A DNA stretch of 4,470 bases, from positions 1-4,470 of IMG/VR virus record IMGVR_UViG_2531839474_000005. One strand, written 5' to 3'. This document shows, one piece after another, positions 2-4,447 of the stretch. The position numbers and the translations under genes were made by a program. The DNA is from a virus (taxonomy: Duplodnaviria > Heunggongvirae > Uroviricota > Caudoviricetes). The notes beneath the pieces are model-generated. The model made no database searches. It had not been told where the DNA came from and worked only from the letters and a program-made list of their open reading frames with translations. The first letter of the stretch is position 1. The number at the start of each line of letters is the position of its first letter.

Positions 2-643
2 CGACTGGCTAAGGTGAAGGATCTGACGCCGGGCGAGATGACGGCAGAACCCTACGATGATAACTACCTGGATGATGAAGACGCGGACTGGACCGCGACC
101 GGGCAGGGGCAGAAGTCTGCAGGAGATACCAGTTTTACGCTGGCCTGGAAACCGGGAGAAGAAGGTCAGAAAGGGCTTATAGGCTGGTTTGAAAGCGGGG
201 ATGTGCGGGCCTATAAAATCCGTTTCCCAAACGGCACGGTGGATGTGTTCCGTGGCTGGGTCAGCAGTATCGGTAAGGCCGTGACGGCGAAAGAAGTGAT
301 CACCCGCACGGTGAAAGTGACCAACGTGGGCAAACCTTCTGTAGCGGAAGAACGCAGCAAAATTACGCCGGTCACTGCGATTAAGGTGACGCCGACATCC
401 GGTACGGTGGCAAAAGGGAAAACAACCACCCTGACGGTTTCTTTTGAGCCGGAAAGTGCAACCGACAAGACGTTCAGAGCGGTTTCCGCCGATCCGTCGA
501 AAGCCACCATTAGTGTGAAAGATATGACAATTACGGTAAACGGCGTGGCGACAGGTAAGGTGCAGATCCCTGTGGTGAGCGGAAATGGTCAGTTCGCCGC
601 AGTGGCTGAAGTCACCGTTACTGAAGCGGGCGCTGCAGGGTAA
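2..643 (+). CDS. V: Major tail tube protein (lambda gpV-like), 5'-truncated by the window edge; C-terminal Ig-like domain
   Basis: Frame is open from position 2 ([12 protein letters not shown]...) to TAA at 641-643, so the true start lies upstream; the ORF-track Met at 14 is internal. The translation ([26 protein letters not shown]...[41 protein letters not shown]...) closely matches my recollection of the C-terminal two thirds of lambda gpV. Position immediately upstream of G/T/H/M fits lambda gene order. Confidence 0.92.
362..640 (+). other. C-terminal Ig-like (Big_2-type) domain of the major tail protein
   Basis: Segment [87 protein letters not shown] has the alternating beta-strand pattern and T/V/S richness typical of bacterial Ig-like domains. 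Lambda gpV is known to carry such a non-essential C-terminal domain. Boundaries are approximate. Confidence 0.7.
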
Positions 644-656: not shown

Positions 657-1088
657 ATGTTTCTGAAAACAGAACAATTTGAATATAACGGTGTGTCCGT
701 CACGCTTTCCGAATTGTCTGCGCTGCAGCGTATTGAGCATCTTGCCCTCCTGAAACGGCGTGCAGAACAGGCAGAATCCAGCGGCAACCTGCAGGTAAGC
801 GTGGAAGATCTCGTCAGAACCGGCGCGTTTCTGGTGGCGATGTCCCTGTGGCATAACCATCCGCAGAAAACGGCATCACCGTCAATGAATGAGGCTGTGA
901 TGCAGATCGAACAGGAGGTGCTCACCACCTGGCCTGCGGATGCCATTGCCCGGGCGGAAGACGTGGTGTTGCGTCTGTCCGGGATGAGCGGGGCTGTTCA
1001 TGTGGATACGGATATCACCGAAGTGGCGAAAAATAACGCGCTTACTGATGATGATTTTTCTGCGGGAAAGTCTTCGACGGCGAGCTGA
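657..1088 (+). CDS. G: Tail assembly chaperone (lambda gpG-like)
   Basis: ATG at 657 with SD upstream; 143 aa; TGA at 1086-1088. Translation MFLKTEQFEYNGVSVTLSELSALQRIEHLALLKRRAEQAE...AFLVAMSLWHNHPQKT...MNEAVMQIEQEVLTTWP...VVLRLSGM closely matches lambda gpG as I recall it. Contains the slippery heptamer near its 3' end. Confidence 0.93.
   Translation: MFLKTEQFEYNGVSVTLSELSALQRIEHLALLKRRAEQAESSGNLQVSVEDLVRTGAFLVAMSLWHNHPQKTASPSMNEAVMQIEQEVLTTWPADAIARAEDVVLRLSGMSGAVHVDTDITEVAKNNALTDDDFSAGKSSTAS
1064..1070 (+). promoter_or_regulatory. Programmed -1 ribosomal frameshift slippery heptamer G GGA AAG (G to G-T recoding site)
   Basis: GGGAAAG at 1064-1070 lies in the G zero frame as GCG GGA AAG (..SAGK..). 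A -1 slip gives GGG AAA GTC TTC GAC GGC GAG CTG AAT TTT..., i.e. GKVFDGELNFALRLAREMGRPDW, which runs open into the T frame. This is the same heptamer and junction peptide known for the lambda G/GT frameshift. Confidence 0.88.
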
Positions 1089-1528
1089 ATTTTGCCCTCA
1101 GACTGGCGCGTGAGATGGGGAGGCCTGACTGGCGCGCCATGCTTGCCGGGATGACATCCACCGAATATGCCGACTGGCGACATTTTTACCGTACGCATTA
1201 TTTTCTCGATACCCAACTGGATATGCATTTTTCCGGGCTGACGTACGCCGTACTCAGCCTGTTTTTTGGCGATCCGGATATGCATCCGGCGGATTTCAGT
1301 CTGCTTGCTCCAGCGTGTGAGGAAGAGCAGACGGAGATGCCGGACGAGGAAGAAATGCTGATGCAGAAAGCGACAGGAGTTGCCGGAGGCGTCCGGTTCG
1401 GAGGGGACGGAGGGCGCGATATTTCACCTTCTGCGGATGTGGTGGATGTCAGCGAGGATGATGTTGCATTAATGATGGCTTCAGCGGGGATTTCCGGAGG
1501 TGTGAGATATGTCCCAGCCAGCGGGTGA
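1064..1528 (+). CDS. T: T portion of the G-T tail assembly chaperone fusion (made as 657..1069 joined to 1069..1528 by -1 frameshift)
   Basis: The -1 frame relative to G is open from the slippery site to TGA at 1526-1528. Translation ...GRPDWRAMLAGMTSTEYADWRHFYRTHYF.DTQLDMHFSGLTYAVLSLFFGDPDMHP.DFSLL...GGVRFG...GGVRY matches lambda gpT as recalled. The ORF-track Met at 1115 has no convincing SD and is probably not an independent start; some pipelines would still annotate T as 1115..1528. Confidence 0.88.
   Translation, partial: GKVFDGELNFALRLAREMGRPDWRAMLAGMTSTEYADWRHFYRTHYFLDTQLDMHFSGLTYAVLSLFFGDPDMHPADFSLLAPACEEEQTEMPDEEEMLMQKATGVAGGVRFGGDGGRDISPSADVVDVSEDDVALMMASAGISGGVRYVPASG
1496..1500 (+). 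promoter_or_regulatory. Shine-Dalgarno (GGAGG) for H
   Basis: GGAGG sits 8 nt upstream of the ATG at 1509, inside the 3' end of the T frame. Confidence 0.65.
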
Positions 1529-4121
1529 TCTGGTTATTGATTTGAGTCTGGATGCGGCCCGGTTTGATGAACAGATGGCCCGGGTACGCCGTCATTTTTC
1601 CAGTCTGGAGGCGGATGCCAGAAAAACCGCCAGTACTGTTGAACAGGGGCTGAGCCGACAGGCGCTGGCTGCACAAAAAGCCGGGATATCAGTCGGACAG
1701 TATAAGGCTGCCATGCGCACACTGCCCGCACAGTTCACGGATATTGTCACTCAGCTTGCCGGTGGTCAGAATCCCTTCCTTATCATGCTGCAGCAGGGGG
1801 GGCAGATCAGCGATTCATTCGGTGGACCGCTCAGCCTGCTTACCCTGCTGAAGGAGGAACTTCTCGGGATCAGGGATGCCTCTGAATCATCAGAGGAGTC
1901 GCTGTCAGATACGGCAAATGCACTGGCTGAAAATGCCCGGAATGCCGGTGAGCTGGGACGATTTATGTCGGTGGCCCGTGTGGCGGCAGGTGGCGGGGTT
2001 GCCGTACTGGCCGCGCTTGCTGCCGCCGCCTGGCAGGCAGAGCAGGCTGACCGGGCCTTATTGCGTTCACTGATCCTGACCGGAGGGGCGGCTGCCACCA
2101 CAACGGCAGAATTGTGGAAAATGGCCGGGGTGATCAGCGATGAAGCCGGTGGTGGTATCAGACAGGCGGCAGAAAATCTGGCCCGTCTGGCAGAAAGCGG
2201 GAAATATACCGCCGGGCAGCTACGGATCATGGGGGAAACCTCTCAGAGATGGCTGCAGACGGTGGGGGACGATGCCGGGAAGGTGGAAAAAGCCTTTGAA
2301 GGGATTGCAGCAGATCCGGTGAAGGCGCTGGCCTCCCTGAATCAGCAGTATAACTTCCTGAGCGTTTCCCAGTTACGCCATATTGATGAGCTTGAGCGCA
2401 CGAAAGGTAAACAGGCTGCGGTGACGGAGGCGATGTCCCTGTTTGCGGATGTCATGAATGCACGTCTGGAGCAACTTGATAAAGCGGCCACGCCGGTGGA
2501 AAAAATCTGGGACGATGTTAAAACCTGGACTTCTGACGCATGGGCATGGATAGGTGATCATACACTGGGGGCACTCAGTCTGATCACTGACGTGGTGGCC
2601 GGAACCGTTGAACAAGTGAAGCTGCTGCTTGTGCAGGGGGATCTGGCGCTGGCTGAATTTATTCAGTCAGCCTGGGAAACGACAAAGAATGTGCCCGGCG
2701 TTGGTGCGTTGTTTGGTGAACTGGCAGAAGAGAACCGCGTATTTATTGAGAAAACAAAACGCGATGAACTGGCGCTGAGAAAATCCATTGCGGAACGGGA
2801 TGCGCGTATACGCCAGGGGGAAATGGGGTACATCAACCGCTCGCGTGCAACAGGCGTCAGCAAAGGTCCTGGGCAGCAGGAAGCCGTCAGCCGTCTGGCT
2901 GAAGAGCTGACAGGTAAAAAGCATACATCACCGAAAACGCGCTCTGCCGGGGAGAGGGAAGAGGAGCAGGCAAGAGAGGCTCTGCTTGCCCTTGAAGCTG
3001 AGCTCAGGACGCTGGAAAAACACAGCGGTGCGAATGAGAAAATCAGTCGGCAGCGCCGTGATTTATGGAAGGCGGAAAGTCAGTATGCGGTCCTGAAAGA
3101 GGCTGCCACGAAACGGCAGTTATCCTGGCAGGAAAAATCCCTGCTGGCCCATGAGAAAGAGACGCTGGAGTACAAACGCCAGCTGGCTGAGCTGGGAGAC
3201 AAAGTTGAACACCAGAAACGGCTGAATGAGCTGGCACAGCAGGCGGTGCGGTTTGAAGAGCAGCAGAGCGCGAAGCAGGCCGCCATCAGCGCAAAAGCCC
3301 GCGGTCTCACTGACCGTCAGGCGCAGCGGGAGTCTGAAGCGCAGCGTCTTCGGGACGTGTACGGTGATAATCCGCAGGCGCTGGCCCGGGTCACCGGGGC
3401 ACTGAAACAGACATGGGCGGATGAAGACATGCTGCGCGGTGACTGGCTGGCCGGGCTGAAGTCCGGCTGGGGGGAGTGGGCGGAAAGTGCGACGGACAGT
3501 TTTTCGCAGGTTAAAAGCGCGGCCACGCAGACCTTTGACGGTATTGCACAGAATATGGCAGCGATGCTGACCGGCAGCGAACAGAACTGGCGTGGTTTCA
3601 CCCGTTCTGTGCTCTCCATGCTGACAGAGATTTTTCTGAAGCAGGCGATGGTGGGGATAGTCGGGAGTATCGGCAGCGCCATTGGCGGTGCTTTCGGTGG
3701 TGGTGCGTCTGCCTCCACGGGGACGGCCATTCAGGCTGCGGCGGCGAACTTCCATTTCGCGACCGGGGGATTTACGGGAACCGGCGGCAAATATGAGCCA
3801 GCGGGGATTGTTCACCGTGGTGAATTTGTCTTCACGAAGGAGGCAACCAGCCGGATTGGTGTCGGCAACCTGTACCGCCTGATGCGGGGCTATGCGGAAG
3901 GTGGTTATGTGGGCGGTGCCGGAAGTCCGGCGCAGATGCGGCGGGCTGAAGGCATTAATTTTAATCAGAACAATCACGTGGTGATTCAGAACGACGGTAC
4001 GAATGGTCTGCCAGGTCCACAGATGATGAAGGCAGTGTATGACATGGCCCGCAAGGGTGCCCGTGATGAAATCCAGGCACAGATGCGCGATGGTGGCCTG
4101 TTCTCCGGAGGTGGACGATGA
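1509..4121 (+). CDS. H: Tail tape measure protein (lambda gpH-like), 870 aa
   Basis: ATG at 1509 with SD; TGA at 4119-4121. N-terminus (GDLVIDLSLDAARFDEQMARVRRHFS...ISVGQYKAAMRTLPAQFTD..LAGGQ) and C-terminal ~390 aa (ELRTLEKHSGANEKISRQRRDLWKAESQ ... SVKSAATQTFDGIAQNMAAMLTGSEQNWR ... KYEPAGIVHRGEFVFTKEATSRIGVGNLYRLMRGYA ... KAVYDMARKGARDEIQAQMRDGGLFSGGGR) closely match lambda gpH as recalled. Large size, Ala/Gln/Glu-rich helical composition and position between G-T and M are typical of tape measure proteins. Confidence 0.95.
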   Translation: MSQPAGDLVIDLSLDAARFDEQMARVRRHFSSLEADARKTASTVEQGLSRQALAAQKAGISVGQYKAAMRTLPAQFTDIVTQLAGGQNPFLIMLQQGGQISDSFGGPLSLLTLLKEELLGIRDASESSEESLSDTANALAENARNAGELGRFMSVARVAAGGGVAVLAALAAAAWQAEQADRALLRSLILTGGAAATTTAELWKMAGVISDEAGGGIRQAAENLARLAESGKYTAGQLRIMGETSQRWLQTVGDDAGKVEKAFEGIAADPVKALASLNQQYNFLSVSQLRHIDELERTKGKQAAVTEAMSLFADVMNARLEQLDKAATPVEKIWDDVKTWTSDAWAWIGDHTLGALSLITDVVAGTVEQVKLLLVQGDLALAEFIQSAWETTKNVPGVGALFGELAEENRVFIEKTKRDELALRKSIAERDARIRQGEMGYINRSRATGVSKGPGQQEAVSRLAEELTGKKHTSPKTRSAGEREEEQAREALLALEAELRTLEKHSGANEKISRQRRDLWKAESQYAVLKEAATKRQLSWQEKSLLAHEKETLEYKRQLAELGDKVEHQKRLNELAQQAVRFEEQQSAKQAAISAKARGLTDRQAQRESEAQRLRDVYGDNPQALARVTGALKQTWADEDMLRGDWLAGLKSGWGEWAESATDSFSQVKSAATQTFDGIAQNMAAMLTGSEQNWRGFTRSVLSMLTEIFLKQAMVGIVGSIGSAIGGAFGGGASASTGTAIQAAAANFHFATGGFTGTGGKYEPAGIVHRGEFVFTKEATSRIGVGNLYRLMRGYAEGGYVGGAGSPAQMRRAEGINFNQNNHVVIQNDGTNGLPGPQMMKAVYDMARKGARDEIQAQMRDGGLFSGGGR
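4107..4111 (+). promoter_or_regulatory. Shine-Dalgarno (GGAGG) for M
   Basis: GGAGG sits 6 nt upstream of the ATG at 4118, within the last codons of H. Confidence 0.65.
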
Positions 4122-4447
4122 AAACCTTCCGCTGGAAAGTGAAACCCGGTATGGATGTGGCTTCGGCCCCTTCTGTAAGAAAGGTGCGCTTTGGTGATGG
4201 CTATTCCCAGCGAGCGCCTGCCGGGCTGAATGCCAACCTGAAAACGTACAGCGTGACGCTGTCTGTCTCCCGTGAGGAGGCCACGGCGCTGGAGTCGTTT
4301 CTGGCTGAGCACGGGGGCTGGAAGGCCTTTCTGTGGACGCCGCCTTATGGTTACAGGCAGATAAAGGTGACCTGCGCAAAATGGTCGTCGCGGGTCAGTA
4401 TGCTGCGTGTTGAGTTCAGCGCAGAGTTTGAACAGGTGGTGAACTGA
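4118..4447 (+). CDS. M: Minor tail protein M (lambda gpM-like), 109 aa
   Basis: ATG at 4118 overlaps the H stop (ATGA); TGA at 4445-4447. Translation MKTFRWKVKPGMDVAS.PSVRKVRFGDGYSQRAPAGLNANLKTYSVTLSV.REEAT.LESFL.EHGGWK.FLWTPPY..RQIKVTC.KWSSRVSMLRVEFSAEFEQVVN is near-identical to lambda gpM as recalled. Confidence 0.95.
   Translation: MKTFRWKVKPGMDVASAPSVRKVRFGDGYSQRAPAGLNANLKTYSVTLSVSREEATALESFLAEHGGWKAFLWTPPYGYRQIKVTCAKWSSRVSMLRVEFSAEFEQVVN
4434..4439 (+). promoter_or_regulatory. Shine-Dalgarno-like (AGGTGG) for L
   Basis: AGGTGG sits 7 nt upstream of the ATG at 4447. Confidence 0.55.

What the first reader, a model, noticed from the sequence alone, without database searches (positions are those of the whole stretch)
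1064..1070. Conserved G/G-T programmed -1 frameshift site, directly readable in the sequence
The heptamer G GGA AAG lies 16 nt before the G stop codon, and the -1 frame is open from there through the whole T region to position 1528. The window therefore encodes two chaperone isoforms, G (657..1088) and G-T (657..1069 plus 1069..1528), from one start codon. In lambda the low, fixed G:G-T ratio is essential for tail assembly. Naive ORF calling would report a separate T gene starting at Met 1115, which is probably wrong. The mechanism is known, but it is the clearest non-canonical coding signal in the window.
Basis: partly seen in the sequence, partly recalled or inferred. Interest (0 to 1): 0.45.

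Follow-up and report, generated by a model that had tools for sequence, protein, structure and literature searches.

The report
Lambda-type G/GT tail chaperone frameshift site
This is the textbook phage-lambda "slippery" sequence that makes a few percent of ribosomes slip back one base so that one gene yields two tail-assembly helper proteins; it is really present here, in a lambda-like prophage, and it is ordinary and already well understood.

Summary
GGGAAAG lies at 1064-1070 and is phased G_GGA_AAG in the G ORF (657..1088). The G stop starts 16 nt after the heptamer's last base. The -1 frame is open only from 1055 to 1528, so any shift into T must happen within about 31 nt.

The window is a lambdoid (Stx-phage-like) tail module, V-G-T-H-M-L. 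The conceptual G-T fusion is 70% identical to lambda gpGT. It matches the G and T family models, and the T model begins 11 residues upstream of Met1115.

In 403 of 405 related loci an in-phase N_NNA_AAG sits exactly 42 nt before the conserved ARE motif. The variants are GGGAAAG, GGAAAAG and AAAAAAG. The AAA core is invariant in 83 distinct sequences.

ATG1115 has no Shine-Dalgarno sequence, and this Met is Phe in the N15-like clade. Independent T translation, as RefSeq annotates it, is therefore unlikely.

A candidate downstream RNA structure looked promising on 15 sequences but did not hold on 83.

Verdict: a real, orthologous copy of the known lambda G/GT -1 programmed frameshift. It is already known and of low interest. 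The main practical point is that automated annotation mis-calls T.

The parts
2..643 (+). 3' part of the major tail (tube) protein gene V, with a C-terminal Ig-like domain. It gives the upstream context of the G/T pair.
   Evidence: ORF 14..643 runs off the left end of the window. Pfam Phage_TTP_12 at 7e-55 and Big_2 at 5e-19.
657..1088 (+). Gene G, the zero-frame tail assembly chaperone (143 aa). It has a strong SD (GGAGG) upstream of ATG657.
   Evidence: PF06894 at 2.8e-49. TIGR01674 at 7e-48. SD duplex energy -10.8 kcal/mol.
1046..1054 (+). Three consecutive TGA codons in the -1 frame, produced by GAT GAT GAT in the G frame. They close the T frame just upstream of the slip site.
1055..1085 (+). 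The G/T overlap. This is the only stretch where a -1 shift can join G to T, and it holds 9 in-phase heptamer positions.
1064..1070 (+). Slippery heptamer G_GGA_AAG. It encodes Gly-Lys in both frames and is the site of -1 slippage.
   Evidence: It is identical to, and aligns with, lambda's site. It sits at a fixed offset of 42 nt before the ARE motif in 403/405 loci. AAA is invariant and the final G is present in 81/83 distinct sequences. Literature: PMC3296357, PMC5009743, PMC7618472.
1070..1528 (+). The -1-frame T segment (152 codons plus stop), translated only as the C-terminal part of the G-T fusion. The full fusion is join(657..1070, 1070..1528), 290 aa.
   Evidence: PF06223. The TIGR01715 match begins at fusion residue 143, and Met1115 is residue 154.
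1115..1117 (+). ATG used by automated annotation as the start of T. It is probably an internal Met, not a start codon.
   Evidence: No SD: -2.3 kcal/mol, which 76% of all window 20-mers equal or beat. This residue is Phe in the N15-like clade. The first ATG in the T frame varies among relatives: +18, +21, +33, +51 or +75 nt from the heptamer.
1104..1139 (+). Predicted hairpin that encloses ATG1115. It is clade-specific at best, and a function is not supported.
   Evidence: Searches suggested it. Searches do not support conservation across the family.
1509..4121 (+). Gene H, the tape measure protein (870 aa). Its start overlaps the end of T by 20 nt. H is the binding target of G and G-T in lambda.
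   Evidence: TMP_2, Tape_meas_lam_C; 52% identity to lambda H, mosaic. Role taken from PMC5009743.
4118..4447 (+). Gene M, a minor tail protein. It gives the downstream context.
   Evidence: PF05939 at 2.7e-39.

Best explanation
The window carries the V-G-T-H-M-L tail module of a lambda-like (Stx-phage-like) prophage. Ribosomes start at ATG657 and most terminate at TGA1086, giving the 143-aa chaperone G.

When GGA and AAG (1065-1070) occupy the P and A sites, a small fraction of ribosomes slips back one base. In lambda this fraction is about 4%, a G:GT ratio of about 30:1. tRNA-Gly re-pairs with GGG and tRNA-Lys(mnm5s2UUU) re-pairs with AAA. Decoding then resumes at GTC (1070-1072) and runs to TGA1526, giving a 290-aa G-T fusion.

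By homology with lambda, the G parts of both proteins coat the tape measure protein H. The T part recruits the tube protein V. Neither protein ends up in the finished tail.

What is shown here: the site, its phase, the frame geometry, orthology to lambda G/T, family-wide conservation of the site, and the absence of start signals for T. What is inferred by homology: that slippage occurs, how often it occurs, and the assembly role.
For: Geometry and phase:
- The heptamer is in phase inside a 31-nt overlap. The chance placement probability is about 0.013.

Orthology:
- The fusion is 70% identical to lambda gpGT across the junction.
- It hits Pfam Phage_TAC_2 and Phage_tail_T, and the NCBIfam equivalogs TIGR01674 and TIGR01715.
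- The DNA around the site is nearly identical to lambda, although the part of G just upstream has diverged.
- The gene order V-G-T-H-M-L matches lambda.

Comparative evidence:
- 403/405 loci from four or more clades, down to 28-37% protein identity, have an in-phase N_NNA_AAG exactly 42 nt before the ARE motif.
- The AAA core is invariant. The last base is G in 81/83 distinct sequences, although AAA is the commoner Lys codon (49 versus 25 in this window; PMC3296357 Table 2).
- The -1-frame peptide after the site is conserved (GK..EL.F...LAREfGRPDWR). The zero-frame tails are 0-5 variable codons followed by a stop.
- Substitutions between the site and the G stop are mostly synonymous in the -1 frame and never synonymous in the zero frame.

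No independent T start:
- Anti-SD duplex energy is -2.3 kcal/mol before ATG1115, against -10.8 for G, H and M.
- The Met is Phe in the N15-like clade, and the position of the first ATG is not conserved.

Literature and annotation:
- Lambda gpG/gpGT are made by -1 PRF at GGGAAAG with about 96% of ribosomes staying in the zero frame. The ratio matters for phage yield and depends on tRNA-Lys U34 thiolation (PMC3296357).
- The 30:1 ratio is crucial for tail assembly, and G_GGA_AAG is highly shift-prone in E. coli (PMC5009743).
- Phage LLS, a relative, carries a curated '-1 programmed translational frameshift site GGAAAAG' annotation at the homologous position.
Against: - Nothing here measures translation.
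- No stimulatory RNA element was found. Rfam gave no match. The downstream fold is not more stable than shuffled sequence (z = +0.7 to -1.7) and is not conserved across the family. This agrees with the low efficiency seen in lambda and is not evidence against slippage.
- The element may sit in a cryptic prophage that no longer makes tails. The window is too short to tell.
- Two related loci (L004, L006) lack the site, but both carry indels that disrupt G or T.
Confidence: 0.93

Rival explanations
1. T is a separate gene translated from its own start at ATG1115, as RefSeq/PGAP and several phage records annotate it, and the heptamer is incidental.
For: An ATG-initiated ORF 1115..1528 exists. The homologous ORF is annotated as 'phage tail assembly protein T' in E. 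coli Z1323CEC0019.
Against: - There is no SD, and GAG abuts the ATG: -2.3 kcal/mol, no better than 76% of random window 20-mers.
- The ATG lies inside a predicted hairpin.
- The TIGR01715 model and the conserved -1-frame peptide start 11-15 residues upstream of this Met.
- The Met is Phe in the N15-like clade, and the first ATG in the T frame ranges from +18 to +75 nt. In 28 distinct sequences it lies after the conserved LAREFGRPDWR motif.
- In lambda the T reading frame is expressed as the gpGT fusion (PMC3296357, PMC5009743).
Confidence: 0.04
2. A shorter T is made by internal initiation at ATG1139, using the GGAGG at 1119-1123.
For: The GGAGG pairs well with the anti-SD sequence (-9.3 kcal/mol).
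Against: - The spacing is about 15 nt, well beyond the usual 5-9 nt (general knowledge of E. coli initiation).
- The GGAGG is an Arg-codon choice (AGG) that is absent in lambda (GGGGCGACCC) and in most relatives.
- The product would lack the most conserved T motif, LAREMGRPDWR.
Confidence: 0.01
3. The G-T fusion arises from RNA polymerase slippage, which would delete or insert a base in the mRNA, and not from ribosomal slippage.
For: The site contains short homopolymer runs (GGG, AAA). One related clade has A6 (AAAAAAG).
Against: - Runs of 3 are much shorter than the homopolymer tracts at which transcriptional slippage is described (PMC5009743).
- The constraint is on codon phase and on the final G of A_AAG (81/83). 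That fits tRNA-Lys re-pairing, not run length.
- In lambda the frameshift rate responds to tRNA-Lys U34 modification (PMC3296357).
Confidence: 0.01

Closest known systems
Bacteriophage lambda G / G-T -1 programmed ribosomal frameshift (Levin, Hendrix & Casjens 1993; Xu, Hendrix & Duda 2004, 2013, 2014, as cited in PMC5009743)
   Same: - Identical heptamer G_GGA_AAG in the same phase.
- The G stop lies the same distance downstream (15 nt between).
- The same Gly-Lys junction, followed by VFDGEL.
- The same gene order V-G-T-H-M-L.
- 70% identity over the whole fusion.
   Different: - The last ~30 residues of G before the site have diverged (...VAKNNALTDDDF here, ...EQTEDAGPAEPV in lambda).
- The -1 frame opens only 9 nt before the heptamer here, against 39 nt in lambda.
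- T is 11 aa longer.
- H is mosaic and 17 aa longer.
- Frameshifting has not been measured for this variant.
N15 / HK225 / mEp237 / LLS-type G-T pairs, which use GGAAAAG
   Same: Homologous G and T (37-49% identity). The slip site is at the same aligned position, 42 nt before ARE. The A_AAG core and the conserved -1-frame peptide are the same.
   Different: - The P-site codon is GAA, so GGAAAAG is not a perfect X_XXY_YYZ heptamer. This suggests that slippage of tRNA-Lys alone on A_AAG is sufficient.
- The Met corresponding to 1115 is Phe.
- T lacks the second C-terminal GGVRY repeat.
E. coli dnaX A_AAA_AAG -1 frameshift
   Same: Same host tRNA-Lys and the same A_AAG A-site logic. One related G-T clade uses exactly A_AAA_AAG (PMC5009743).
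   Different: dnaX frameshifting is about 50% efficient and is driven by an upstream SD-like element and a downstream stem-loop. No such stimulators were found here. The product logic also differs: a truncated protein in dnaX, an extended protein here.

Membership tests
Lambda-type G/GT tail assembly chaperone -1 PRF | Two overlapping ORFs located between the major tail protein gene and the tape measure gene | tested here: met
   V (Phage_TTP_12 + Big_2) at ..643, G at 657..1088, the T frame at 1055..1528, and H (TMP_2, Tape_meas_lam_C) at 1509..4121.
Lambda-type G/GT tail assembly chaperone -1 PRF | The downstream ORF is in the -1 frame relative to the upstream ORF and lacks its own translation start signals | tested here: met
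   The -1 relation is shown. There is no SD before ATG1115 (-2.3 versus -10.8 kcal/mol for neighbouring genes). That Met is not conserved. This is a computational test only.
Lambda-type G/GT tail assembly chaperone -1 PRF | An in-phase slippery heptamer (X_XXY_YYZ) inside the overlap, shortly before the upstream ORF's stop | tested here: met
   G_GGA_AAG at 1064-1070, with the stop at 1086. The chance of such a placement is about 0.013.
Lambda-type G/GT tail assembly chaperone -1 PRF | Sequence homology of both parts to lambda gpG and gpT | tested here: met
   TIGR01674 at 7e-48 and TIGR01715 at 6e-59, both equivalog models scoring above their cut-offs. PF06894 and PF06223. 70% identity to lambda gpGT.
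Lambda-type G/GT tail assembly chaperone -1 PRF | The slip site is conserved at the same position in diverged relatives, with constraint on synonymous sites | tested here: met
   403/405 loci carry it. AAA is invariant and the final G is present in 81/83 distinct sequences. Entropy is 0-0.16 bits at these sites, against about 1.2 bits at other third positions.
Lambda-type G/GT tail assembly chaperone -1 PRF | A G-T fusion protein is actually produced at a low, fixed ratio to G (about 1:30 in lambda) | not testable with these tools
   This needs protein or ribosome-profiling data. The lambda values come from PMC3296357 and PMC5009743.
Lambda-type G/GT tail assembly chaperone -1 PRF | Both G and G-T are required for tail assembly and both are absent from mature tails | not testable with these tools
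   This is a genetic and biochemical property shown for lambda (PMC5009743). It is inferred here by orthology.
-1 PRF signals with a 3' RNA stimulator (dnaX / IS / retroviral type) | A stable, conserved stem-loop or pseudoknot 5-9 nt downstream of the heptamer | tested here: not met
   A stem that starts 8 nt downstream was predicted on 15 sequences. On 83 distinct sequences the robust covariation measures are at chance level (265/500 and 289/500 shuffles reach the observed value). RNAalifold does not recover the stem, and synonymous sites inside it are not constrained. Single-sequence folds are not unusual.

The most novel reading that the evidence does not exclude
In the lambda and N15-like clades only, a long-range stem (1079-1085 with 1141-1147) starts 8 nt after the heptamer and encloses a hairpin (1104-1139) that buries ATG1115. 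This structure could fine-tune the G:GT ratio, suppress spurious initiation inside T, or do both. It would be a previously unrecognised, clade-specific RNA element at the classic lambda site. The three top pairs of the stem differ in sequence among three clades yet stay complementary (GGC/GCC, AGU/GCU, CGG/UCG).
Probability: 0.1. Interest if true: 0.3.

Novelty: already known. Interest (0 to 1): 0.1.

Why it matters
The biology is textbook. The G:GT ratio set by this slip site controls correct assembly of long phage tails, and it links phage yield to host tRNA-Lys modification.

The practical value here is for annotation. RefSeq/PGAP and many phage records call T as a separate 137-aa protein from an internal Met. 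They therefore miss the true 290-aa product and the first 15 conserved residues of the T domain. This locus type matches 3629 of 5426 complete E. coli genomes.

The family survey also shows a useful rule. An in-phase A_AAG exactly 42 nt upstream of the ARE(F/M)GRPDW motif marks the site in all clades sampled, including those with the non-canonical GGAAAAG.

Tried and rejected
1. Downstream stimulatory RNA structure. It was predicted and looked significant on 15 sequences. I rejected it as a family-wide element on 83 distinct sequences, and synonymous-site entropy gave no support.
2. Rfam scan of the whole window at E <= 1. The only hit was a chance RNase P fragment (12 bits, E = 0.84).
3. Upstream SD-like stimulator of the dnaX type. 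None is visible in 1040-1063.
4. PDB sequence search with the fusion found no solved relatives.
5. The genome-contig scan returned a single locus (E. albertii), because single-protein patterns reach only close relatives. Viral contig scans seeded from four clades were used instead.
6. The primary lambda papers are not in the held library: Levin 1993 was not looked up, and look-ups of Xu 2004, Xu 2013 and a PMC id guessed for Xu 2014 all failed. Their content is cited through PMC5009743, PMC3296357 and PMC7618472. My recollection that lambda needs no defined 3' structure is from memory only.
7. L004 and L006 looked like counter-examples without a site. Both carry indels that break G or T, so they are decayed prophages or sequencing errors.
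8. The long antisense ORFs inside H have no Pfam hits and were treated as non-coding.

Full report
**Observation**

The window reads ...GAT GAT GAT TTT TCT GCG GGA AAG TCT TCG ACG GCG AGC TGA in the frame that starts at ATG657. GGGAAAG occupies 1064-1070 and is the only copy on either strand. Its first base is the third base of a G codon, so the phase is G_GGA_AAG. The G stop is at 1086-1088. The -1 frame carries TGA TGA TGA at 1046-1054 and is then open from 1055 to TGA1526-1528. Any shift that joins G to T must therefore occur within 1055-1085, which holds 9 in-phase heptamer positions.

One GGGAAAG in 4.5 kb is what chance gives, since 1.03 are expected. However, only 2 of 1331 in-phase positions in V, G, H and M carry any X_XXY_YYZ heptamer. 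The probability that one falls in those 9 positions is about 0.013. The 1069/1069 join and the 1070/1070 join give the same 290-aa protein.

**What the locus is**

The window is the V-G-T-H-M-L tail module of a lambdoid prophage.
- It is 94-96% identical to Stx1a- and Stx2a-converting phages.
- The 600-1600 stretch is 97.5% identical to the best complete E. coli genome, and 3629 of 5426 genomes hold a match to it.
- The fusion matches an Escherichia albertii contig at 93% protein identity.
- Pfam assigns V (Phage_TTP_12 plus Big_2), H (TMP_2, Tape_meas_lam_C) and M (Phage_min_tail).
- The conceptual G-T fusion hits Phage_TAC_2 and Phage_tail_T, and the NCBIfam equivalogs TIGR01674 (G) and TIGR01715 (T).
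- The fusion is 70% identical to a lambda gpGT built in the same way (E = 8e-142), and the alignment runs straight through the junction.
- At the DNA level, the C-terminal part of G upstream of the site has diverged from lambda. From TTTCTGCGGGAAAG onward the two sequences are nearly identical.

**Evidence that the T frame is read by frameshifting and not from its own start**

1. The T family model begins at fusion residue 143. Met1115 is residue 154, so starting there would remove conserved sequence.
2. G, H and M each have GGAGG 4-6 nt upstream of the start, with an anti-SD duplex energy of -10.8 kcal/mol. ATG1115 has only GAG abutting it, at -2.3 kcal/mol, which is no better than 76% of all 20-mers in the window.
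3. I compared 405 related loci from at least four clades, down to 28-37% protein identity. They came from lambda, HK630, LLS, mEp237, HK225, phi458, a Providencia phage and about 400 IMG/VR contigs.
   - In 403 of them an in-phase N_NNA_AAG lies exactly 42 nt upstream of the conserved ARE(F/M)GRPDW motif.
   - The heptamers are GGAAAAG (235 loci), GGGAAAG (155), AAAAAAG (8), GGGAAAA (3), GGCAAAG (1) and AGAAAAG (1).
   - The two exceptions, L004 and L006, carry indels that break G or T.
4. In 83 distinct sequences the AAA is invariant and the last base is G in 81. These synonymous sites have 0-0.16 bits of entropy, while other third positions nearby average about 1.2 bits. AAG is retained although AAA is the commoner Lys codon (49 versus 25 in this window; PMC3296357 Table 2).
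5. After the site the -1-frame peptide is conserved (GK-v-l-x-x-e-l-x-F-a-m-r-LAREfgRPDWR). The zero-frame tail is 0 to 5 variable residues and then a stop.
6. Within the GGGAAAG clade, substitutions between the site and the G stop are synonymous or conservative in the -1 frame and are always amino-acid-changing in the zero frame.
7. The Met at 1115 is Phe in the N15-like clade. The first ATG in the T frame falls at +18, +21, +33, +51 or +75 nt from the heptamer, depending on the clade. In 28 distinct sequences it lies beyond the conserved motif.

Only some curated phage records mark the frameshift, for example LLS, which has a joined CDS and a '-1 programmed translational frameshift site GGAAAAG' feature.

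**Mechanism**

The lambda mechanism is documented in the literature.
- gpG and gpGT arise by -1 PRF at GGGAAAG, which encodes Gly-Lys in both frames. About 96% of ribosomes stay in frame.
- The ratio affects phage yield. It rises when tRNA-Lys(UUU) U34 is under-thiolated (PMC3296357, PMC7618472).
[quoted passage not shown] G and the G part of GT bind the tape measure protein, and the T part binds the major tail protein. Neither is present in the virion.
- G_GGA_AAG is highly shift-prone in E. coli, and A_AAG is the minimal shift-prone unit (PMC5009743).

Applied here: tandem re-pairing of tRNA-Gly (GGA to GGG) and tRNA-Lys (AAG to AAA) at 1064-1070, then decoding of GTC at 1070-1072. The comparative data add one point. 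The family-wide invariant is A_AAG, not the full heptamer. The commonest relative, GGAAAAG, is not a perfect tandem site, so slippage of tRNA-Lys alone may be enough. The G_GG of the window and lambda clade adds P-site re-pairing.

**Stimulators**

- There is no SD-like element upstream.
- Rfam finds nothing relevant.
- The 60-100 nt downstream do not fold unusually well (z = +0.7 to -1.7).
- RNAalifold on 15 sequences proposed a stem that starts 8 nt after the heptamer (1079-1085 with 1141-1147) and encloses a hairpin (1104-1139) containing ATG1115. It showed apparent covariation, with 0/500 shuffles reaching the observed values.
- On 83 distinct sequences the measures that are robust to relatedness fall to chance (265/500 and 289/500). 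Whole clades break the helices, RNAalifold does not recover the structure de novo, and synonymous sites inside the helices are as variable as those outside (1.08 versus 1.23 bits).
- I therefore treat the structure as clade-specific at best and unproven. A site that acts alone is consistent with the low efficiency of the lambda site.

**Rivals**

- Independent initiation at ATG1115 is addressed above.
- Initiation at ATG1139 from the GGAGG at 1119-1123 has about 15 nt of spacing. The GGAGG is absent in lambda, and the product would lack the conserved motif.
- Transcriptional slippage is unlikely on runs of three. It also does not explain the constraint on phase and on the final G (PMC5009743).

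**Comparison and novelty**

This is an ortholog of the lambda G/GT recoding site, with an identical heptamer, spacing and junction. All sequence-level membership criteria were tested and met. Production of the fusion, the ratio, and the requirement for tail assembly cannot be tested with these tools. It is already known. The residual value is in correcting annotation and in the simple positional rule for locating the site across the family.

**Caveat**

The window cannot show whether the prophage is active. All five genes visible here are intact, which fits a functional or recently functional tail module.

Noticed in passing
window 1079-1147 (helix 1079-1085/1141-1147; hairpin 1104-1139): A predicted long-range stem starts 8 nt after the heptamer and encloses a hairpin that buries ATG1115. 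It looked covarying on 15 sequences. On 83 distinct sequences it is not supported. One pair (1079/1147) still shows three Watson-Crick types across three clades.
   Followed up: yes
related loci L085-L089, L170-L408 (for example L085:1008-1014): Most relatives use GGAAAAG, which is not a perfect X_XXY_YYZ heptamer because the P-site codon is GAA. Only A_AAG is invariant across the family, and it always lies 42 nt before the ARE motif. The G stop is 0, 3 or 15 nt after the heptamer, depending on the clade.
   Followed up: yes
window 1046-1054: Three consecutive -1-frame TGA codons, created by GAT GAT GAT (Asp-Asp-Asp) in G, close the T frame 9 nt before the slip site. In lambda the T frame is open 39 nt upstream.
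   Followed up: partly
window 1053-1072: The heptamer can pair with the upstream T-run (GAUUUUUC / GGAAAGUC, loop UGCG) in an 8-bp hairpin. A ribosome sitting on the site would melt this hairpin. No function is proposed. The pairing is weaker in lambda.
   Followed up: no
window 1119-1123 and 1139-1141: A GGAGG (Gly-Arg codons in the T frame) lies about 15 nt upstream of the in-frame ATG1139. It is absent in lambda and most relatives, so it is probably incidental.
   Followed up: partly
window ~1350-1525 (C-terminal third of T): Lambda-type T carries two copies of the motif LM..(A/S).G(I/V/L).GGVR(F/Y), while N15-type T ends after one copy. This looks like an internal duplication of about 38 aa at the C terminus, next to the overlap with the H start.
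   Followed up: no
window 1509-4121: The tape measure protein H is mosaic relative to lambda H. Residues 1-110 and about 480-870 are highly similar, while the middle (about 110-480) has diverged with many gaps. H is 870 aa here and 853 aa in lambda, which implies a slightly different tail length.
   Followed up: partly
window 226-232: This is the only other in-phase X_XXY_YYZ heptamer in the four ORFs: C_CCA_AAC in V. By my own reading of the sequence, the -1 frame closes after about 14 codons. It is probably a chance occurrence.
   Followed up: partly
window 3120-4379 (- strand) and 1766-2230 (- strand): Long antisense ORFs (419 aa and 154 aa) lie inside H and M. They have no Pfam hits and are most likely a composition artefact of the G+C-rich coding strand.
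   Followed up: partly
L004:1501-1971 and L006:1501-2124: Two IMG/VR relatives have indels that put G out of frame at or near the slip site. L004 is missing one T from the T-run, and L006 has a deletion that fuses G to T out of frame. They are either decayed prophages or homopolymer sequencing errors.
   Followed up: partly
L070 / H70 (MW057783.1): A record named 'Campylobacter phage CJLB-4' carries a G-T region with the same identity to the query as lambda (73.8%). This suggests a lambda contaminant or a mislabelled record.
   Followed up: no
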